Under the pieces are notes generated by a model that worked only from the letters and a program-made list of their open reading frames with translations, was not told the DNA's origin and made no database searches. A stretch of DNA of 64,000 nucleotides from Spizellomyces punctatus DAOM BR117 (Eukaryota), in the NCBI GenBank assembly GCA_000182565.2, contig KQ257455.1; one strand, written 5' to 3'. The position numbers and the translations under genes were made by a program. Each line of letters starts with the position of its first letter. Within the stretch, counting starts at the first letter, position 1. This document shows positions 52,194 through 60,264 of the stretch, piece by piece.

Positions 52194-53656
52194 TTAAGTG
52201 CAGAATGCCCGGTAGGAAGTGAAAGGACCATCTCCCAGCCCCGTCAAGGTGACAGCCACGCCTGCACTGATGAAAAACACGTAGCCTGCTTTTGCATCCA
52301 AAACAGTCTTGGTCCCAGTGTTGCTATACTCAATCTTTCCGTTTCCCTCCGTGACGATCAACACGCTCGGTCCCGCGATACCTTCTACTGTTTCTTGTTC
52401 TTTCTCAAGCCGGGTGCGCAGAATCGAAAACTCTTGGATAGGGGGATCGTACAAAGTTGTGTTCTTGAGGCCTTTGTATGGGTCTCCGTGCAGAATCTGG
52501 GCATCAGCCGGACCGTAGTTGTAGGTTAGGCATTTGACGAGGGTATCCACATCCTTGAACTTTGGTGTCAATCCCGAACGAATCACATTGTCGGATGCAG
52601 CCATGCACTCCACGCAATCTGCACCGGAGCGGTAAATCAAAAAGAAGTTCAGATATCACCATTGAAAATTAAGCTTACCCCCGGAAAGGTACGCATGTGG
52701 CTCATTGGCGGCCAAAAAGATTGATTCGCCGGGGCTCAGCTTGACATGATTTAGTAAAAATGCGCAAAATACACCAACGTCTTTGGGAAACTGTTCATTC
52801 AGACGGTAAACCAGTTCAAACAATCCTCCTTTGGTGTTTAGTCCATCGGCTTGTATTCTGGTTATCAATTTGTCCAGTTGTTCATGGAGCGCTTTTTCGT
52901 CGCTCTCCATCAATGTTTTGAACAGGAGCTTCAAAACATCCTTGTTGGCCGCGAGATCTTTGGCATCAGTTGATTCACCCGCTTTATCCACTTGCACTTC
53001 GAATTGTTTGGATACGGCATCACCGATCAGGTCCCGGAATTCGGGAAATTGAGTGAGATTGGCCTTGATTTCTTTCAAAGGGCGGAAGTTGATGAATGCT
53101 TCAAAAGGGGTGAGGGCAATGGCCTAACAAAATGCATTCATCGTCAGTCAACAAAGTCGCATTCGTTGCTCTATGGTCTCTGTACCATTTCAGGCTTGTG
53201 GTTTGGGTCCTTGTAAATATCAGGGAACCTTGCATGCAGGTCGCCTGCCAATTTCTTATCCGGATGCGCTTGGATGGACAACGCCTTTCTGATGGACAAG
53301 ACTTTGAACAGGAAGGGAAGGTCGCCGCTGTATTCTTGGTGTAGCTTTTCAGTCAAGTTTGTTGCGTTCAATATCGTCTTGAGAGGGGTATCTGTGTCGA
53401 AGACTTTTGAAGGCCCGTTGGGGTGGGTTCCCATCCAAAGCTATTTACCAATATTTTGTTGGACTGTAAACCCGATTTGTATGATTCGCATGCTGTCTCA
53501 AACGAAGCCTACCTCTGCATACGGCGTGTTTTCCTTTGCGGCAAACTCTGGCGAAGCAGCCGCAAGCTCCGCGACTTTGCTGTCCTTTCCTAGCTTTCCC
53601 CAATCATATGATTGACTTTTGCAATCCAGACGGATGATGGGCGCGTGTGCAGTCAT
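52194..53656 (-). CDS. PMI40: Mannose-6-phosphate isomerase, class I
   Basis: QSYDWGK, PYAE|LWMGTHPNGPS, LPFLFKVLSIRKALSIQAHPDK, YKDPNHKPEM, LAANEPHAYLSG|DCVECMAASDNVIRSGLTPK. Confidence 0.96.
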
Positions 53657-54264: not shown

Positions 54265-57057
54265 ATGTACGGTATGTTTTGCAGATGGCAGTGACGCAAA
54301 ACGCCAATCTCATTTTTCATAATGGCATCTAACGATTCAATGTGAACTTGTTCAGGTCGACCGCCAACAGGATCGCTTGCAAACCGTCCAAGTAGCCGCG
54401 CCGGGTCAACAACATGTAAGTGAAAACATATTAGGACTGCGACTTGCTCATGGAGATATGTATATGATTAACCTTTGGATAATAGCATGGGGAAGAGGCG
54501 GCGCTGCGGCGGGAGGAGCCCCAGCTCCTCCGCGAACTGGTACGATCTGCATGTTTTGATTTTGATGGCAGGAGCTCATCACGTATTAATTGAAGGTGCG
54601 ACGAGGGCGGGTGTACCTGGAACCGCGCGACCCACGACAGCGATGAGAGGAGCATTTGGTTTCCAGGTGGTTGACCGGCCAATGACTCAACAGGGCCTGG
54701 GAGGCATGCGTACCGGCGTCCAAGGTACATACATAACTACATGACCAGACTATTCCTAGCAGCTTCACGCTAAAGTTCCCTGGCTGACGCACTAAAGTGT
54801 AGGGCCTGGTCGTATGGTGCAAGACATTACGTTCTTCCAAAGCGAACTTCGGCAAAAGATAACTCTACTGAACAATGAGGTCAAGCGGCTATGTGCGGAA
54901 TACGATACATTGAACAAGGAGAATGCCAATAGTGCCGCATTTGAGAAGAGGTATGCAATTGCCGAATAGGTCAACTTGCTGGATCCAGCAACGGTCTAAC
55001 GTTACTAGAGCCGACATGCTGGCGGAGGAATTACGCGATCTGCAGGGTCAATTAGGAGACTTTAACACACTTGTCGACAAGCTTCACACGGACACCGATC
55101 TGGAAGACATTGAACGACATTACAACCAGCTCAAAGCAAAGAACGAGCGGGAATCTCAGGTGTTAGATGAAGTCTTCATGGAAAGACAACAGTGAGTGTC
55201 ATGGAGTTTGGGCGGTGGGCACATGAAGAAAGACAAAAGTTAACACACCCATTTCCGTAATCAGACGGGAAGCGGCAACCAGGGAGCTGGAGAACCAAAT
55301 AGAAGAAGAACGACGCCGGACAGAGGAACAAATCAATGATCTGGTTCGTCAATCATGAAGTCGTAACCGTCAAAGTCTTGATATTGAAATTGAATCCTGA
55401 TTCTCCAAAGGATGATGCTCGTCGAGCACAATATTACGACCTTAAAGAACAAAACTTCAGATATCAAGAGGAGATTGCACGAAGGCAGCTGGAGCTTGAT
55501 GAGCTCAGCAAACAGACGACGGCGTTACAAGAGGTATGTGAGCGCCCCATCTCAGCGTAGTTGGATAACGACAATGATGGCGATAAAGGCTCAAATCATC
55601 CGATGGCTCATGATCGTTGCGTATAGGACTTGCGACAAGATCCAATCAAGAAACGAGCTCTAGCACTGAACGAGAAAGTGAACGAGTTGCGCACAAAGAA
55701 GCAAGAGATGGAGGAATCACTTAAGGCTTTGGAATCAGAATCTGGACCACAGGAGAAGAGCAGACTACTGCAGCAGGTAATTAATTTTGCGCGATCCAAG
55801 GCTTTTTTATGCGCAACGAACCCACTTTTTGGTTGACCAGGTCAAAGAAGATAACCAGGAAACATCTGCTATGGAGCGCAAAATTTTGGAGTTCGAAGAA
55901 CAAGCTCAAAAGATGAAGGAACAGCTCTCTGAATTGGACATGGAAATAGATTCCAATCAGGGTATGCGAAGCACCGCGTGCATTTCCGACACTCCTTGTT
56001 CACTTATATATGCGCTCGATTCTGACACAGCCGAGAAGAATGCTAAATACGAGGAGCTTCTTAAGCGCGACCGGGACATGCAGAACTTCATTGATAACTT
56101 TGAGGATCGGAAAAAAGACGCCGAGGAACGCAACAGCCAGACTGAAAAGAACATCGTAACGTTGCTGGACCATATTCGGGTAAAATCGCACGACAGCAGG
56201 GTTGCATCAGTTTTGCCATACTCCAGCTTGACGTTCTTTCTTAATCAGTCGCTCTCTAAACACGAGCAATTGCCGTCACCAGAAGGATTTCAAGATTTGC
56301 AAGGCGATTTAAAGTTTAAAGAGAAGGAAATGCGGAATTCCGAGAACACAATGGAGGCTTTGGTCCAAGGTTGGAGCTGCTGAAGTTATTGTAGCATCAA
56401 GTGTACTTTCTCTGATGTTGATATGGGGCACATTAGAACGGGATCGACGTCTTCAGGACCTGGAAAAAGTCAACCAACTTGAAACCAAGATGGCGGCCGA
56501 GCTGGAGCAACTTCGAGTTAAAATGGAGGGGCTCAAGAACGACCTTATCAAAGTCTCTGATATCGAAAGTGTGAAGAAAGAAGTTGAGGAGACAAAGGCT
56601 GTATGTTTCCTTGTCCAGGAACTCGTCGAACTTTTTCAGACCCACAAATTGACAACTTTACTTGCATCAGCGCAATTCATCGGAGCGCGAGCAGCTGCTT
56701 ACACTGCGAGATACACTCCGATATCAGGTGCAACACACGCTTTCTGCCAAGCACGAGGCGAAAAAGACGTCCTTGCACGAAAATGAGACGGCTGCACACC
56801 TGGCAGCTATGGAGCAACGTTTAAGGCATATTGAGGGAACCAATTTCCATTTGAAAGAGTGTAAGTTTTTATGGCAAGATGTGGGAGACATTACAAAGCA
56901 CGTTCAGCGGATTGACATGGCGAATCATTTCTTTTTAGATATAAGCTCAAAGCTCGCTGAAAGTGATTACAAGCCCGTTGCAAAGCAGGTGTCCGCCCTG
57001 ATGGAGGAAGTTAACCAACAGATTTTGAAAATAATGTCAGTTGCGCCAGCGCGGTGA
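54265..57057 (+). CDS. IFT74: Intraflagellar transport protein 74/72
   Basis: RPPTG..RP-rich N-terminus, VVDRPMTQQGLGGMRTG..GPGRMVQD, AEELRDLQGQLGDFNTLVDKL, LLQQVKEDNQETSAMER, KYEELLKRDRDMQNFIDNF; long coiled coil; many introns. Confidence 0.9.
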
Positions 57058-57344
57058 AAGGAATAACTATGTTTAACCAACACAATAATCATGAAAGTAG
57101 AAGTAATTTAGAGGTGTTACAACTTTGTAGAGATCGCTTTCTTTGTTTACCCACCCTCAACACGTGACTAATCACCCCAGCCCAAAGTTTTGAGGCATGG
57201 CGTGACGGCCATAACGTCTCCCTAGCCAAAACACCCCACAAGTTCATTCCCCACACACACCTCGGCGTTGCAGAGGGGAATCAATTGAAGCCTCTCATCG
57301 GACACCCTTTTGACAGTTGGTGCTGTCACTGCAACCAGATCGTA

Positions 57345-59524
57345 ATGCCTGCTGCAAAGCTTCCCGATCCTTGCAATAGTCTTGGAGGCCTGAGTGAGTT
57401 TTTTGGGCTTCCTAGCCAATAGCATATCAGTTTGACACAAGTTGACATGACCATAAAATAGCACCCAAATCTGTATTGCCGGCGGGAGCAGCAGCAGATC
57501 CTCGTCCTTTAACTCCTGAGAGCGAGGATATTGATGAGGGTTATGATGAAGACTTCCCCGACGATTTCCCCTTCTGGTATGGAGGAGCTAGTGGAGTGCA
57601 GCGGATAGGGGCCACACGCAAGGCCTCGGTGGATGCGGCGCCGTGCCCTGAAAACGAACATGAAGGAAGGGAGGAAGAGCATGATGGTGGTGAATACGAG
57701 CACGGAGAACCAAGGGAACGCCGCTCTTCATATCACGATCATGATTCAGTCCTCCACTATTTTGTTGCTACTAGTCAAAGTGAAAATAAACTCGATCGCT
57801 ACCTAAGCAACATCATTGAAGCCTTTTTGAACGAACCAGCTCCGATATACGCTACTCAGCCTGACACCCCAGAATCTATGCGCGCTCGCTTCGTTCAATC
57901 TGAGGTACCTCTGCGTTCAAAGGCGGCCGGACAGATTGGAGTAGCATCCGCAGAAGAATATTTGCGGACAGTCAAGTCCAACGTCATTGACCGAGCGACT
58001 CGAGTCTCATCTCCCAAAATGATTGGGCACATGACAACCGCGCTACCTTATTTCCATCGGCCGCTTGCACGTCTTTTGGCCGCCATGAATCAGAACGTGG
58101 TGAAGCTCGAAACGGCGTCAACCATGACGTACCTTGAGCGCCAGACAGTTGCGATGCTTCATCGCGAGTTTTATAATAATCCGTCATCCTTCTATGAGGC
58201 TTACATGCACAGCCCTGAACATTCGCTCGGTGTATTTTGTTCTGGTGGCACAATAGCGAATATCACTGCCATGTGGGCCGCGAGAAATCGAGCACTTCCC
58301 TCAGATCCACAAAATGGCTTCAAAGGGGTGGAGAAGGAAGGATTATTCAAAGCATTGAAACATTATGGCTATGAAGGTGCAGTCATCGTCGGTAGCAGAC
58401 TGATGCATTACTCCTTCAAAAAGGCCGCGGATTTGCTGGGGCTTGGTGATGAAGGGCTGGTAACGATCGATTCTGATGATGCGTTCAGGATGAGGATGGA
58501 CGAGCTTGAAGCCAAACTATCTGAACTCCAAGCCAAGAAGTACCTGATCATTGCAGTAGTTGGGATTGCCGGCACAACAGAAACAGGATCTATAGACCCT
58601 TTAGACCGCATTGCCCTACAATGCCAACGGCAGGGAATTCACTTCCATGTGGATGCTGCATGGGGTGGGCCTCTCATTTTCTCCGCCGAACACCGCCCAA
58701 AGCTTCATGGCATTCACCATGCCGATACCATCACTGTTGATGGTCACAAACAACTCTACACACCCATGGGTCTTGGGTTGCTTCTTTTCCAACATCCCAC
58801 CACCGCGCACGCAATCCGAAAAACTGCAAACTACGTGATACGACACGATTCTCCTGATCTCGGCAAGTTTACTCTTGAAGGCTCCCGACCCGCCATATCT
58901 CTCCATCTTCATGCCAGTTTGCATCTTCTGGGACGGGACGGGCTCGAATGTCTGGTCACGCGAAGTGCGACACTCGCGAGACAAATGAGCGTTAGAATAG
59001 ATACACATCCCAGCTACGCATTTCAAGGCCTCCATCTGCCGGAAACAAACATCTTCTTGTTCAGATACCTGCCCAAAGAACTTCGTGTCAAAGTTCACAC
59101 TGGCGAACCTCTAACAGAGGAAGAAGATGCATCCGTCAGTGATTGTACCAGGCGGGTTCAAGTTGCTTTGGCCTCTGCTGGCACAGAGCCATCAGAAGCA
59201 ACGCAGGAGCCATCGCCACCCACCGGCTTTGTTTCGCGGACACGGGTCAGATTCCACGGCCGTGATGTGGACGCGTTCCGCGTAGTGATCGCCAATCCTC
59301 TGACCAGCTGGGACGATGTGGAGGATGTTCTTCGCAACATGCTCATCATTGGAGCCAAAGTGGAAGCAGAGATTGCGAATGAACGGCGTCCCTTGGTGGC
59401 ACAACACGTACCTACTGTTCAGAAGGTAGATGGAAATGTCAAGGAAGACATTAGCAGATGGAGTGAGCTCCGAGTTCCCCAGAAGGGGGAGAAGATGTGG
59501 GTGGGATGGCCTTTCGATATGTAA
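57345..59524 (+). CDS. Group II PLP-dependent decarboxylase, bacterial PanP (aspartate 1-decarboxylase)-like
   Basis: IGHMTTALPYF, NQNVVKLET, MHSPEHSLGVFCSGGTIANITAMW, EGLFKALKHYGYEG, AGTTETGSIDPL, HVDAAWGG, DGHKQLY (PLP lysine), DLGKFTLEGSR; a single intron (57394-57461) links ATG 57345 in frame. Confidence 0.88.
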
Positions 59525-59778
59525 ACAATGCACAACTTACAGGTGGTTTTGTTACATTGGTCAAGTAACCTAACTTATAGAACTCACGTAGGTAGAGTAG
59601 AGAGAGATGTACATGTAAATAGTGGGGTGGTAGGGTGTGACAGGACAATGATTCAGATGGCTGGATAACTCGTTTCTTGGGTGGAACAGCCACCAATTTG
59701 ATTTGACTCATATGCACAATTGCAAGTAGCCGCTACATACGCCGTCCCAGTACTTATTCTACACAGCCTATACTGACT

Positions 59779-60264
59779 CTACTGCTTTCCTTGGAGCTCT
59801 TTCACAAGCGCCACGTACTGCTTCTGAGCCTCCTCCTTGGACGTACCTAAATGTCAAAATGGAACGGATATTAATGTCACTGTCTCCTTAGCATGTGGGA
59901 AACGTCCTACGCACCCTTCAACTTGGTCCAGGCATCCCACTTTGCCTTTCCTTGGAGGTCAAACATGCCAGGCTTGGCTGTAAAAATAAACACCAGTCAA
60001 AAGACCGCTATTTGGCCACTGGATTACAGATGAAGTAACACCCACTAGTTTCATTGTCACCAACAATAGACTGCTTGAAGAGAGCGTAGAGGCGGAGAAG
60101 TTCGTCGTTGCTGGGTTTGTAGGAAAGGTTCTTGACGTCCTCGGCGGCTTGGATGAATTCAGGCTACGACAATAAACAAGGTGTCAACCAGATCATGACA
60201 TCCACGCGTAGACTGAGGGCTAACCAAGCACACTTACGTTTCCAGTGCTTGCAGGGTCTGCCAT
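59779..60264 (-). CDS. ACB1: Acyl-CoA-binding protein, 4 exons
   Basis: EFIQAAEDVKNLSYKPSNDELLRLYALFKQSIVGDNET|..KPGMFDLQGKAKWDAWTKLK|GTSKEEAQKQYVALVKEL. Confidence 0.95.

What the first reader, a model, noticed from the sequence alone, without database searches (positions are those of the whole stretch)
57345..59524. Bacterial PanP-like PLP decarboxylase in a fungal genome (candidate horizontal transfer; possible alternative beta-alanine route)
Seen: the ~2-kb catalytic body lies in one exon, and the only intron is in an N-terminal extension (acidic, His-rich) upstream of the conserved region. Known: blocks such as IGHMTTALPYF, MHSPEHSLGVFCSGGTIANIT, FKGVEKEGLFKALKHYGYEG and DLGKFTLEGSR match, as I recall, the proteobacterial pyridoxal-dependent aspartate 1-decarboxylase PanP (Vibrio-type) much better than eukaryotic GAD/AADC. 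Yeast makes beta-alanine by polyamine oxidation. Inference: a bacterial gene was acquired, gained a eukaryotic N-terminus and intron, and may supply beta-alanine for pantothenate/CoA synthesis. Long exons also occur in AQR and VPS35 here, so lack of introns alone is weak evidence.
Basis: partly seen in the sequence, partly recalled or inferred. Interest (0 to 1): 0.75.

Follow-up and report, generated by a model that had tools for sequence, protein, structure and literature searches.

The report
PanP-like aspartate decarboxylase gene in chytrid
This chytrid fungus gene encodes a vitamin-B6-dependent decarboxylase of the bacterial PanP type that most likely makes beta-alanine for coenzyme A; this family and its foreign origin in chytrids were already published in 2021, so the finding is real but not new.

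Summary
Window 57345-59524 (+) is a two-exon gene whose spliced translation is identical to Spizellomyces punctatus SPPG_03806 (703 aa). The single 68-nt intron lies in the N-terminal extension.

The protein is a group II PLP decarboxylase. Its best family match by far is PanP (TIGR03799, 519 bits; next family 153; GAD 29).

The idea is already in print. Perli et al. 2021 (mBio) showed that Neocallimastix AdcA rescues yeast fms1-delta, found orthologs in chytrids, and proposed an ancient bacterial transfer. AdcA is 43% identical to this protein and lies in the same fungal clade.

My trees refine that picture:
- The transfer is not specific to Spizellomyces. More than 35 named chytrids carry the gene.
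- Fungi group with thraustochytrids, dinoflagellates, diplonemids and a euglenid in one eukaryote clade (100/99). That clade is not nested in any sampled bacterial PanP clade.
- Chytrids and protists share a C-terminal W-x-x-[W/M]-P motif that is absent from 82 named bacterial proteins.

Aspartate decarboxylase activity for this protein is inferred, not shown.

The parts
57345..57393 (+). Exon 1: start codon plus 16 codons and 1 nt (MPAAKLPDPCNSLGGL + first base of Thr)
   Evidence: Sequence. The spliced translation equals public protein P0002.
57394..57461 (+). Only intron, 68 nt, GTGAGT...TAG, phase 1
   Evidence: Not confirmed by RNA reads, because depth there is too low.
57462..59524 (+). 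Exon 2, including the stop codon at 59522-59524; holds the whole catalytic body
   Evidence: Open frame; splice check.
57533..57601 (+). Chytrid-specific N-terminal motif DEGYDEDFPDDFPFWYGGASGVQ
   Evidence: Alignment A2 of 20 chytrid proteins: P53, Y56 and S60 are nearly invariant. A loose pattern for it is found in 25 of 41 chytrid-A rows, 0 of 82 named bacteria, 0 of 12 named protists and 0 of 3 Neocallimastix. Function unknown.
57779..59338 (+). PanP-like core (TIGR03799 profile positions 23-518 of 522); the Pfam PF00282 part is 57956-59014
58646..58669 (+). HVDAAWGG block, containing the conserved Asp that binds the PLP pyridine nitrogen in fold-type I enzymes (role recalled from general knowledge)
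   Evidence: Position. Invariant in A1, A2 and A3.
58739..58750 (+). DGHK: the Schiff-base lysine motif of group II decarboxylases
   Evidence: Position. Invariant D-x-H-K. Bacterial loci split into 25 of 80 DGHK and 55 of 80 DAHK.
59498..59521 (+). Extreme C-terminal motif WVGWPFDM (W-x-G-W-P-[FYL]-[DE]-x)
   Evidence: W696, G698 and W699 nearly invariant, P700 invariant. The related W-x-x-[WM]-[PD] pattern is present in the last 100 residues of 35 of 41 chytrid-A rows and 9 of 12 named protists. It is absent from 82 named bacteria, 3 Neocallimastix and 3 chytrid-B rows.
59525..59715 (+). Approximate 3' UTR and transcript end
   Evidence: The RNA run X11 gives + strand depth of 46-77 in bins 59425-59715, dropping to 3.3 after 59716. 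The exact end is not resolved. A convergent minus-strand transcript has poly(A) ends at about 59670.

Best explanation
The gene is Spizellomyces punctatus SPPG_03806. It is a nuclear, intron-bearing gene for a fold-type I, group II pyridoxal-phosphate decarboxylase of the PanP/AdcA family.

Most likely it removes the alpha-carboxyl of L-aspartate to give beta-alanine and CO2. That would feed pantothenate and coenzyme A synthesis without the oxygen-dependent polyamine-oxidase route used by yeast.

Shown here: family assignment, intact catalytic motifs, placement in one fungal clade with the experimentally validated Neocallimastix AdcA, presence in all sampled chytrid orders, and transcription.

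Inferred: the substrate (aspartate), the physiological role, and the direction and age of the transfer.

The gene belongs to a eukaryote-wide subfamily (chytrids, Neocallimastigomycota, thraustochytrids, dinoflagellates, diplonemids, a euglenid) that is sister to, not nested in, the sampled bacterial PanP clades. Its entry into fungi is therefore ancient, and the immediate donor is unresolved.
For: - Family scores. TIGR03799 PanP is the best model at 519.3 bits and covers 496 of 522 profile positions. The next model scores 153.4. PF00282 scores 154 bits.
- Catalytic blocks. SGGT, HVDAAWGG, DGHK and EGSRP are invariant across eukaryote and bacterial members.
- Link to the validated enzyme. NcAdcA (UniRef A0A1Y1ZL74 = P0281) rescued pantothenate auxotrophy of yeast fms1-delta (PMC8262920: abstract and passages). 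It is 43% identical over 609 columns, E 2e-162. It lies with the window protein in a fungal clade supported 100/99 (through its cluster-mate P0056) and 99 (NcAdcA itself).
- Second validated anchor. Vibrio fischeri PanP is reported as an aspartate decarboxylase (Pan et al. 2017, known to me only as cited in PMC10102598). Vibrio orthologs form the other side of the family. Validated Asp decarboxylases therefore bracket the window protein.
- Cut-off. NcAdcA also scores below the TIGR03799 cut-off (539.8), so a sub-threshold score does not argue against the activity.
- Not contamination. Orthologs at 50-84% identity occur in more than 35 named chytrid species. The gene lies on a 1.5-Mb contig. 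It has no marked compositional oddity: GC 0.51 against a window GC of 0.48.
- Transcription. + strand reads pile up at the 3' end.
Against: - No activity has been measured for this protein or for any chytrid-A ortholog.
- It is only 43% identical to the validated enzyme.
- Group II decarboxylases change substrate among Asp, Glu, cysteine sulfinate and diaminobutyrate with few changes (general knowledge).
- It misses the curated PanP equivalog cut-off (519.3 against 606.1).
- The chytrid-A clade carries conserved N- and C-terminal motifs that NcAdcA and bacteria lack. These could mean a different regulation or role.
- Some chytrids (Polychytrium, Geranomyces) have a second, shorter copy without these motifs. 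That copy could be the housekeeping enzyme.
- I could not search the S. punctatus genome. I therefore do not know whether Fms1/Ald, PanD, the uracil route or pantothenate synthetase are present.
Confidence: 0.7

Rival explanations
1. Same family, different substrate. The chytrid-A enzyme decarboxylates another acidic or basic amino acid (glutamate, cysteine sulfinate, 2,4-diaminobutyrate). Its products would be GABA, hypotaurine or 1,3-diaminopropane rather than beta-alanine.
For: - The second-best NCBIfam model is L-2,4-diaminobutyrate decarboxylase (153.4 bits).
- The best solved relatives are diaminobutyrate-pathway and siderophore decarboxylases (8zpi, 4rit, 5o5c).
- The score is below the PanP equivalog cut-off.
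- There are clade-specific terminal motifs and a second paralog in some chytrids.
- Public annotations call several orthologs 'glutamate decarboxylase'. These are automatic names only.
Against: - The PanP model beats every other decarboxylase model by more than 360 bits.
- The only two members with reported function, NcAdcA and V. fischeri PanP, are both aspartate decarboxylases. They lie on either side of this protein in the tree.
Confidence: 0.2
2. Origin rival. The gene was not taken by chytrids from a bacterium. It is either an old eukaryotic gene lost many times, or it entered one eukaryote once and then spread between eukaryotes. On either version the chytrid copy came from a eukaryotic ancestor or donor.
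For: - All named eukaryote rows fall on one side of a branch and all named bacteria on the other. This holds for 27 named eukaryote rows at 100/99 in the careful tree and 34 at SH-aLRT 93 in the wider quick tree.
- Subclades follow taxonomy: dinoflagellates together, diplonemids together, thraustochytrids together, fungi together.
- Holding fungi with the cyanobacterial/acidobacterial clade costs 68.5 lnL, AU p = 0.0037.
- A C-terminal W-x-x-[WM]-P motif is shared by chytrids and protists and absent from 82 named bacteria.
Against: - The distribution is very patchy. No animal, plant, Dikarya or Mucoromycota protein appears among the best 120 hits of either search.
- Perli et al. found none in 372 Dikarya except one separate ascomycete protein.
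- The family is broad in bacteria: 585 of 600 scanned stretches in genome contigs.
- 18 rows in the clade are unnamed and could include bacteria.
- The base of the family tree is unresolved.
- The AU group was chosen after seeing the tree.
- The motif pattern was written after seeing the sequences.
Confidence: 0.35
3. Recent, lineage-specific transfer into Spizellomyces, or bacterial contamination of the assembly.
Against: - The gene has a spliceosomal intron and sits on a 1.5-Mb contig.
- Orthologs at 50-84% identity are present across Spizellomycetales, Rhizophlyctidales, Chytridiales, Rhizophydiales, Cladochytriales, Polychytriales and Synchytriales. The gene tree is broadly congruent with those orders.
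- The best bacterial identity is only 39-49%.
- GC is close to that of the flanks.
Confidence: 0.01
4. A vertically inherited eukaryotic GAD/CSAD/GADL1/AADC-type decarboxylase.
For: It has the same Pfam domain (PF00282) and carries automatic 'glutamate decarboxylase' names.
Against: - The GAD model TIGR01788 scores 28.8 bits against a cut-off of 380.4.
- Solved GAD65, GAD67, CSAD and GADL1 reach 99-118 bits and DOPA decarboxylase 51.5. PanP-like bacterial proteins reach about 450 bits.
- Perli et al. report a separate Neocallimastigomycete clade for true GAD homologs (discussion passage).
Confidence: 0.01

Closest known systems
Neocallimastix californiae AdcA (UniProt A0A1Y1ZL74; Perli et al. 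2021, mBio, PMC8262920)
   Same: It lies in the same fungal clade of the PanP-like family. It is 43% identical across the whole core. Both have the D-G-H-K lysine motif, and both score sub-threshold but best on TIGR03799 (539.8 and 519.3). It was proposed to supply beta-alanine for CoA and to stem from an ancient transfer shared with chytrids.
   Different: NcAdcA lacks the chytrid N-terminal DEGF..FPFWY extension and the C-terminal WxGWPF[DE] end. It has its own low-complexity insert near the C-terminal domain. It comes from a strict anaerobe, whereas S. punctatus is aerobic (general knowledge). Only NcAdcA has been tested.
[quoted passage not shown] 2017 as cited in PMC10102598)
   Same: The same family model is the best hit, with full-length collinear alignment and 39-46% identity.
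   Different: Vibrio, Marinobacter and Desulfuromonas proteins form a separate clade with D-A-H-K and an N-terminal R-I-F-T-V-P-E-A-P start. They score 906-977 bits. They have no terminal extensions and are about 550 aa.
Cyanobacterial/acidobacterial PanP-like proteins (Nostoc, Microcoleus, Pyrinomonadaceae, Blastocatellia)
   Same: They are the highest-scoring bacterial relatives (44-49% identity, about 450 bits). They share the D-G-H-K motif.
   Different: They are a separate, well-supported bacterial clade (99/99). They sit just above the TIGR03799 cut-off (613-642 bits). Their function is untested, and they have no eukaryote-type C-terminal motif.
Animal acidic-amino-acid decarboxylases (insect ADC, GADL1, CSAD, GAD65/67)
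   Same: Same Pfam domain and fold type. Some also make beta-alanine from aspartate (PMC7367687, title and abstract listing only).
   Different: They are only distantly related: 99-118 bits to solved GADL1, CSAD and GAD. They represent an independent origin of the activity.
Pyruvoyl-dependent PanD and the yeast Fms1/Ald2/Ald3 polyamine route
   Same: Same metabolic product, beta-alanine for pantothenate.
   Different: These are unrelated proteins and chemistries. There is no PanD-family hit. Fms1 needs O2 (PMC8262920 introduction passage).

Membership tests
Group II PLP-dependent decarboxylases (Pfam PF00282) | Match to the family HMM above the gathering score | tested here: met
   154 bits against a cut-off of 27, profile positions 21-358 of 375.
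Group II PLP-dependent decarboxylases (Pfam PF00282) | Schiff-base lysine in D-x-H-K and the conserved HVD...W aspartate block | tested here: met
   DGHK at 58739-58750 and HVDAAWGG at 58646-58669. Both are invariant in alignments A1-A3.
PanP, pyridoxal-dependent aspartate 1-decarboxylase (NCBIfam TIGR03799, equivalog) | Whole-protein score at or above the curated cut-off of 606.1 bits | tested here: not met
   519.3 bits. All 6 other eukaryote-clade proteins tested also fall below (468-563), including the validated NcAdcA at 539.8. All 6 bacterial proteins tested are above (613-977).
PanP, pyridoxal-dependent aspartate 1-decarboxylase (NCBIfam TIGR03799, equivalog) | PanP is the best-scoring decarboxylase model, with full-length coverage | tested here: met
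   519.3 against 153.4 for the next model. ORF residues 112-631 align to profile positions 23-518 of 522.
PanP, pyridoxal-dependent aspartate 1-decarboxylase (NCBIfam TIGR03799, equivalog) | Falls inside the PanP family relative to other PF00282 decarboxylases in a rooted tree | tested here: met
   Two non-PanP PF00282 proteins from Vibrio and Nostoc genomes are split from all 74 PanP-like rows at 100/99. Only these two outgroups were used.
PanP, pyridoxal-dependent aspartate 1-decarboxylase (NCBIfam TIGR03799, equivalog) | L-aspartate 1-decarboxylase activity | not testable with these tools
   Needs an enzyme assay or complementation.
Fungal AdcA (Perli et al. 2021) | Same clade as the validated NcAdcA A0A1Y1ZL74, to the exclusion of bacteria and protists | tested here: met
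   The fungal clade of chytrids plus Neocallimastix is supported 100/99 and, with NcAdcA itself included, 99.
Fungal AdcA (Perli et al. 2021) | Rescue of yeast fms1-delta pantothenate auxotrophy | not tested
   Done only for the Neocallimastix gene.
Fungal AdcA (Perli et al. 2021) | Listed among that paper's chytrid orthologs | tested here: inconclusive
   The main text names no Spizellomyces: 0 occurrences of 'Spizellomyces' and of 'punctatus'. It says 5 of 6 chytrids had orthologs.
Eukaryotic GAD/CSAD/GADL1/AADC | Best match to these families | tested here: not met
   TIGR01788 GAD scores 28.8 bits. Solved GAD, CSAD and GADL1 score 99-118 bits and DOPA decarboxylase 51.5.
Pyruvoyl-dependent PanD | Any match to the PanD family | tested here: not met
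   No such family among the Pfam hits at E <= 0.01.

The most novel reading that the evidence does not exclude
The 'chytrid AdcA' is one branch of a single eukaryote-wide PanP-like subfamily. That subfamily spans Opisthokonta (Chytridiomycota, Neocallimastigomycota), Stramenopiles (thraustochytrids), Alveolata (dinoflagellates) and Euglenozoa (diplonemids, a euglenid). It is marked by a eukaryote-only C-terminal W-x-x-[W/M]-P motif.

This would mean one early entry into eukaryotes, or descent from an early eukaryote, followed by loss or eukaryote-to-eukaryote spread. [quoted passage not shown]

In chytrids the extra conserved FPFWY and GWPF[DE] termini would then be an added regulatory or docking module on a housekeeping enzyme.
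Probability: 0.45. Interest if true: 0.45.

Novelty: already known. Interest (0 to 1): 0.3.

Why it matters
Beta-alanine supply is the step of CoA synthesis that differs most between lineages. A PLP-dependent aspartate decarboxylase gives an oxygen-independent route, and this has been used to remove a vitamin requirement from anaerobic yeast (Perli et al. 2021).

For this window the main value is correct annotation. SPPG_03806 is listed publicly as 'uncharacterized' or 'pyridoxal-dependent decarboxylase', and its orthologs as 'glutamate decarboxylase 2'. The evidence points to an AdcA/PanP-type aspartate decarboxylase.

The modest new element is the wider, single eukaryotic clade and its shared C-terminal motif. 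This changes the published transfer scenario. S. punctatus is a genetically tractable chytrid (recalled), so it offers a place to test both the enzyme and its conserved termini.

Tried and rejected
- Whole-genome search for other beta-alanine routes (Fms1, PanD, PanC): no genome is held for this window. The pathway context is untested.
- Structure. AlphaFold2 on the 20-row chytrid alignment gave mean pLDDT 60.4 and pTM 0.62. Residues 1-232, 660-687 and 698-703 were under 50. It says nothing about whether the terminal motifs dock on the core, so I ran no fold search. A homodimer prediction was not attempted, because two copies exceed the 1000-residue limit.
- RNA support for the intron. The only raw-read RNA run has 60-letter reads biased to 3' ends. 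The 5' part has depth 0-3.5 and no joints were listed. The short contigs of runs X1 and X4 (252 and 180 nt, identical to the window) show only that the sequence is present in a root and a soil RNA library.
- Literature. Searches and 49 of the held library found no paper describing PanP/AdcA homologs in thraustochytrids, dinoflagellates or euglenozoans. I saw listings only, apart from the three papers named in the report. This is not proof of absence, and supplements were closed.
- Pfam scan of ten neighbouring frames: only phosphomannose isomerase pieces were found. Nothing links the neighbours to pantothenate metabolism.
- Recent transfer or contamination, and GAD/AADC identity: considered and rejected (see rival explanations).
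Full report
**What is there**

The + strand carries one stop-free frame from 57446 to 59524 (692 codons). Upstream lie an ATG at 57345, a GTGAGT donor at 57394 and an acceptor ending at 57461. Joining 57345-57393 to 57462-59524 gives a 703-codon reading frame. Its translation is identical to the public protein SPPG_03806 / XP_016608723.1 / UniRef A0A0L0HIP1 of Spizellomyces punctatus DAOM BR117. This organism is a chytrid of the order Spizellomycetales.

The first 110 residues are acidic (25 D+E) with 5 His. The single 68-nt intron lies in that extension.

The intron is supported by the public annotation and by a similar N-terminus in a related species. It is not supported by RNA reads. The one usable RNA run is biased to 3' ends. 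It shows + strand depth of 15-77 at 59328-59715 and almost nothing at the 5' end. That run does show that the gene is transcribed.

**What family it is**

- Pfam gives PF00282 at 154 bits.
- Among NCBIfam models the PanP equivalog TIGR03799 scores 519.3 bits over 496 of 522 profile positions.
- The next model, diaminobutyrate decarboxylase, scores 153.4, and GAD scores 28.8.
- Solved GADL1, CSAD, GAD65 and GAD67 reach only 99-118 bits and DOPA decarboxylase 51.5. The best 22 matches include no chain named as PanP.

The score is below the curated cut-off of 606.1. I calibrated this:
- three proteobacterial or Desulfuromonas proteins score 906-977;
- three cyanobacterial or acidobacterial proteins score 613-642;
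- six other eukaryote proteins score 468-563, among them the experimentally validated Neocallimastix AdcA at 539.8.

Missing the cut-off is thus a property of the whole eukaryote clade. It does not argue against the activity.

**Prior art**

Perli et al. 2021 (mBio, PMC8262920) is the key paper. I read its abstract, all of section 5, and passages elsewhere. The paper reports the following:
- They identified AdcA (A0A1Y1ZL74, 625 aa) in Neocallimastix californiae.
- They showed that it restores pantothenate prototrophy to yeast fms1-delta.
- They found orthologs in 5 of 6 chytrids examined and in no other eukaryotes, except one separate ascomycete protein.

The main text does not name Spizellomyces. 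The species lists are in supplements that I could not open.

V. fischeri PanP as an aspartate decarboxylase is known to me only through its citation in PMC10102598.

**Link to the validated enzyme**

A0A1Y1ZL74 is protein P0281 in the collection. It is 43% identical to the window protein over 609 columns, E 2e-162.

**Distribution**

The first homolog search scored 8000 candidates, found 3822 at E <= 0.001 and listed the best 120. Among those 120:
- the window protein has orthologs at 50-84% identity in more than 35 named chytrid species, spanning the orders listed under the rival explanations;
- a shorter second copy occurs in Polychytrium and Geranomyces;
- Neocallimastix proteins are at 43-46% identity;
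- unexpectedly, protist proteins are also at 44-48%.

Cluster look-ups and the taxonomy tool identify the protists:
- thraustochytrids: Hondaea fermentalgiana (genome contig of 240 kb) and Mucochytrium quahogii;
- dinoflagellates: Ansanella, Yihiella, Noctiluca (two copies) and Polarella (genome contig of 315 kb);
- diplonemids: Artemidia, Namystynia and a transcript labelled 'Hpha';
- the euglenid Petalomonas.

A scan of one genome per prokaryote species found 585 relatives among 600 matched stretches.
- 25 of the 80 have the lysine motif DGHK. These are cyanobacteria, Acidobacteriota, and one each of Actinomycetota, Planctomycetota and Geobacter.
- 55 of the 80 have DAHK. These are Vibrio, Marinobacter and other gamma-proteobacteria, Desulfuromonas and one Microcoleus.

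The window protein has DGHK.

**Trees**

*FastTree.* A tree of 213 rows placed every named eukaryote in one 99-row clade. The rows were all listed hits of at least 450 aa, 77 of the 80 bacterial loci (those of at least 500 aa), and two outgroups.

*Careful tree.* I then ran IQ-TREE (LG+C20+F+G4 by PMSF, 1000 ultrafast bootstraps plus SH-aLRT) on a hand-picked 76 of those rows and 541 columns. It was rooted on two non-PanP PF00282 proteins from a Vibrio and a Nostoc genome. The results were:
- all 27 named eukaryote rows plus 18 unnamed rows form one clade (100/99);
- all 20 named bacteria lie outside it;
- fungi (chytrids plus Neocallimastix) form a clade (100/99);
- the named protists form a clade (99/93);
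- the two bacterial clades are each strongly supported and join each other at 87/88;
- the base of the family is unresolved.

*Wider quick tree.* A quick LG+G4 tree of 92 rows added NcAdcA itself and more protists. It keeps all 34 named eukaryotes on one side (SH-aLRT 93) and puts NcAdcA in the fungal clade (99).

*AU test.* Forcing fungi to group with the cyanobacterial/acidobacterial clade costs 68.5 log-likelihood units (AU p = 0.0037). The group was named after I had seen the tree.

*Caveats.*
- The 18 unnamed rows could include bacteria. Most sit on contigs of about 2 kb, which look like transcripts, but I could not fetch them.
- Bacterial sampling came from best hits only.
- Eleven rows have deviant composition.

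**An independent character**

The chytrid proteins end in W-x-G-W-P-[FYL]-[DE]-x (window 59498-59521). The protist proteins carry Y-W-x-x-Y-W-x-x-M-P at the start of a longer C-terminal tail.

The pattern W-x-x-[WM]-[PD] in the last 100 residues is found as follows:

| Group | Rows with the pattern |
|---|---|
| Chytrid-A | 35 of 41 |
| Named protists | 9 of 12 |
| Named bacteria | 0 of 82 |
| Neocallimastix | 0 of 3 |
| Chytrid-B | 0 of 3 |

I wrote the pattern after seeing the sequences. The chytrid and protist counts are therefore descriptive, and the zero in bacteria is the control. Misses in chytrid-A include partial proteins and variants such as Synchytrium F-V-G-W-P-I-E-F.

Chytrid-A proteins also share an N-terminal D-E-G-F-x-D-F-P-D-E-F-P-F-W-Y-G-G-A-S-G-V-Q motif (window 57533-57601). 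It is absent elsewhere. Its function is unknown, and the structure model was uninformative there.

**Reading**

The gene is a long-resident nuclear gene of chytrids. It has an intron, a composition close to its flanks (GC 0.51 against 0.48) and a gene tree broadly congruent with the chytrid orders. It belongs to the PanP/AdcA family.

Validated aspartate decarboxylases lie both within its fungal clade (NcAdcA) and in the bacterial sister clade (Vibrio PanP). Aspartate-to-beta-alanine is therefore the most likely activity, and I put it at about 0.7. The main rival is a different substrate, at about 0.2.

On origin, the data agree with Perli et al. that the event predates the chytrid/Neocallimastigomycete split. 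They do not show a direct bacterial donor for fungi. The fungal genes share ancestry with genes of four other protist lineages.

**Verdict**

The kind is already known and the interest is low to moderate. The useful outputs are:
- a better functional annotation for SPPG_03806 and its orthologs;
- the wider single eukaryote clade;
- the conserved terminal motifs.

Noticed in passing
Proteins P0128, P0129, P0133, P0137, P0146; not in the window: Many of the best 150 representatives are 1000-6000 aa long. All 5 that I scanned are NRPS-type proteins with a PanP-like decarboxylase domain. In P0133 and P0146 the domain sits between the AMP-binding core and AMP-binding_C, which makes an interrupted adenylation domain. 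This may be on-line beta-alanine formation.
   Followed up: partly
Protein P0371 (KAH9259400.1, labelled Batrachochytrium salamandrivorans BASA81): This protein sits in the protist part of the clade next to thraustochytrid rows, not with the B. salamandrivorans ortholog P0028. Either the assembly label is wrong or a second organism is in that assembly.
   Followed up: no
window 59619-59900 (-): A convergent minus-strand transcript has very high read depth (264-917) and poly(A) loose ends at about 59670-59673. Its 3' end abuts or overlaps the 3' end of the decarboxylase transcript. The Pfam scan of nearby frames gave no family.
   Followed up: partly
window 52194-53123 (-): Two adjacent frames match phosphomannose isomerase type I: the helical insertion domain and the C-terminal domain. 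This looks like an ordinary housekeeping neighbour split by an intron or frame change.
   Followed up: no
Proteins P0047 (Polychytrium), P0037 and P0044 (Geranomyces variabilis): Some chytrids carry a second, shorter PanP-like copy without the terminal motifs. It branches at the base of the chytrid clade. It may be an older duplicate that was lost in most lineages, including Spizellomyces as far as the hit list shows.
   Followed up: partly
window 57000-57096 (+): RNA depth of 76 on the + strand just upstream of the gene, falling to 6 by 57097-57193. This is probably the 3' end of the upstream + strand gene whose frames run 55781-57057.
   Followed up: no
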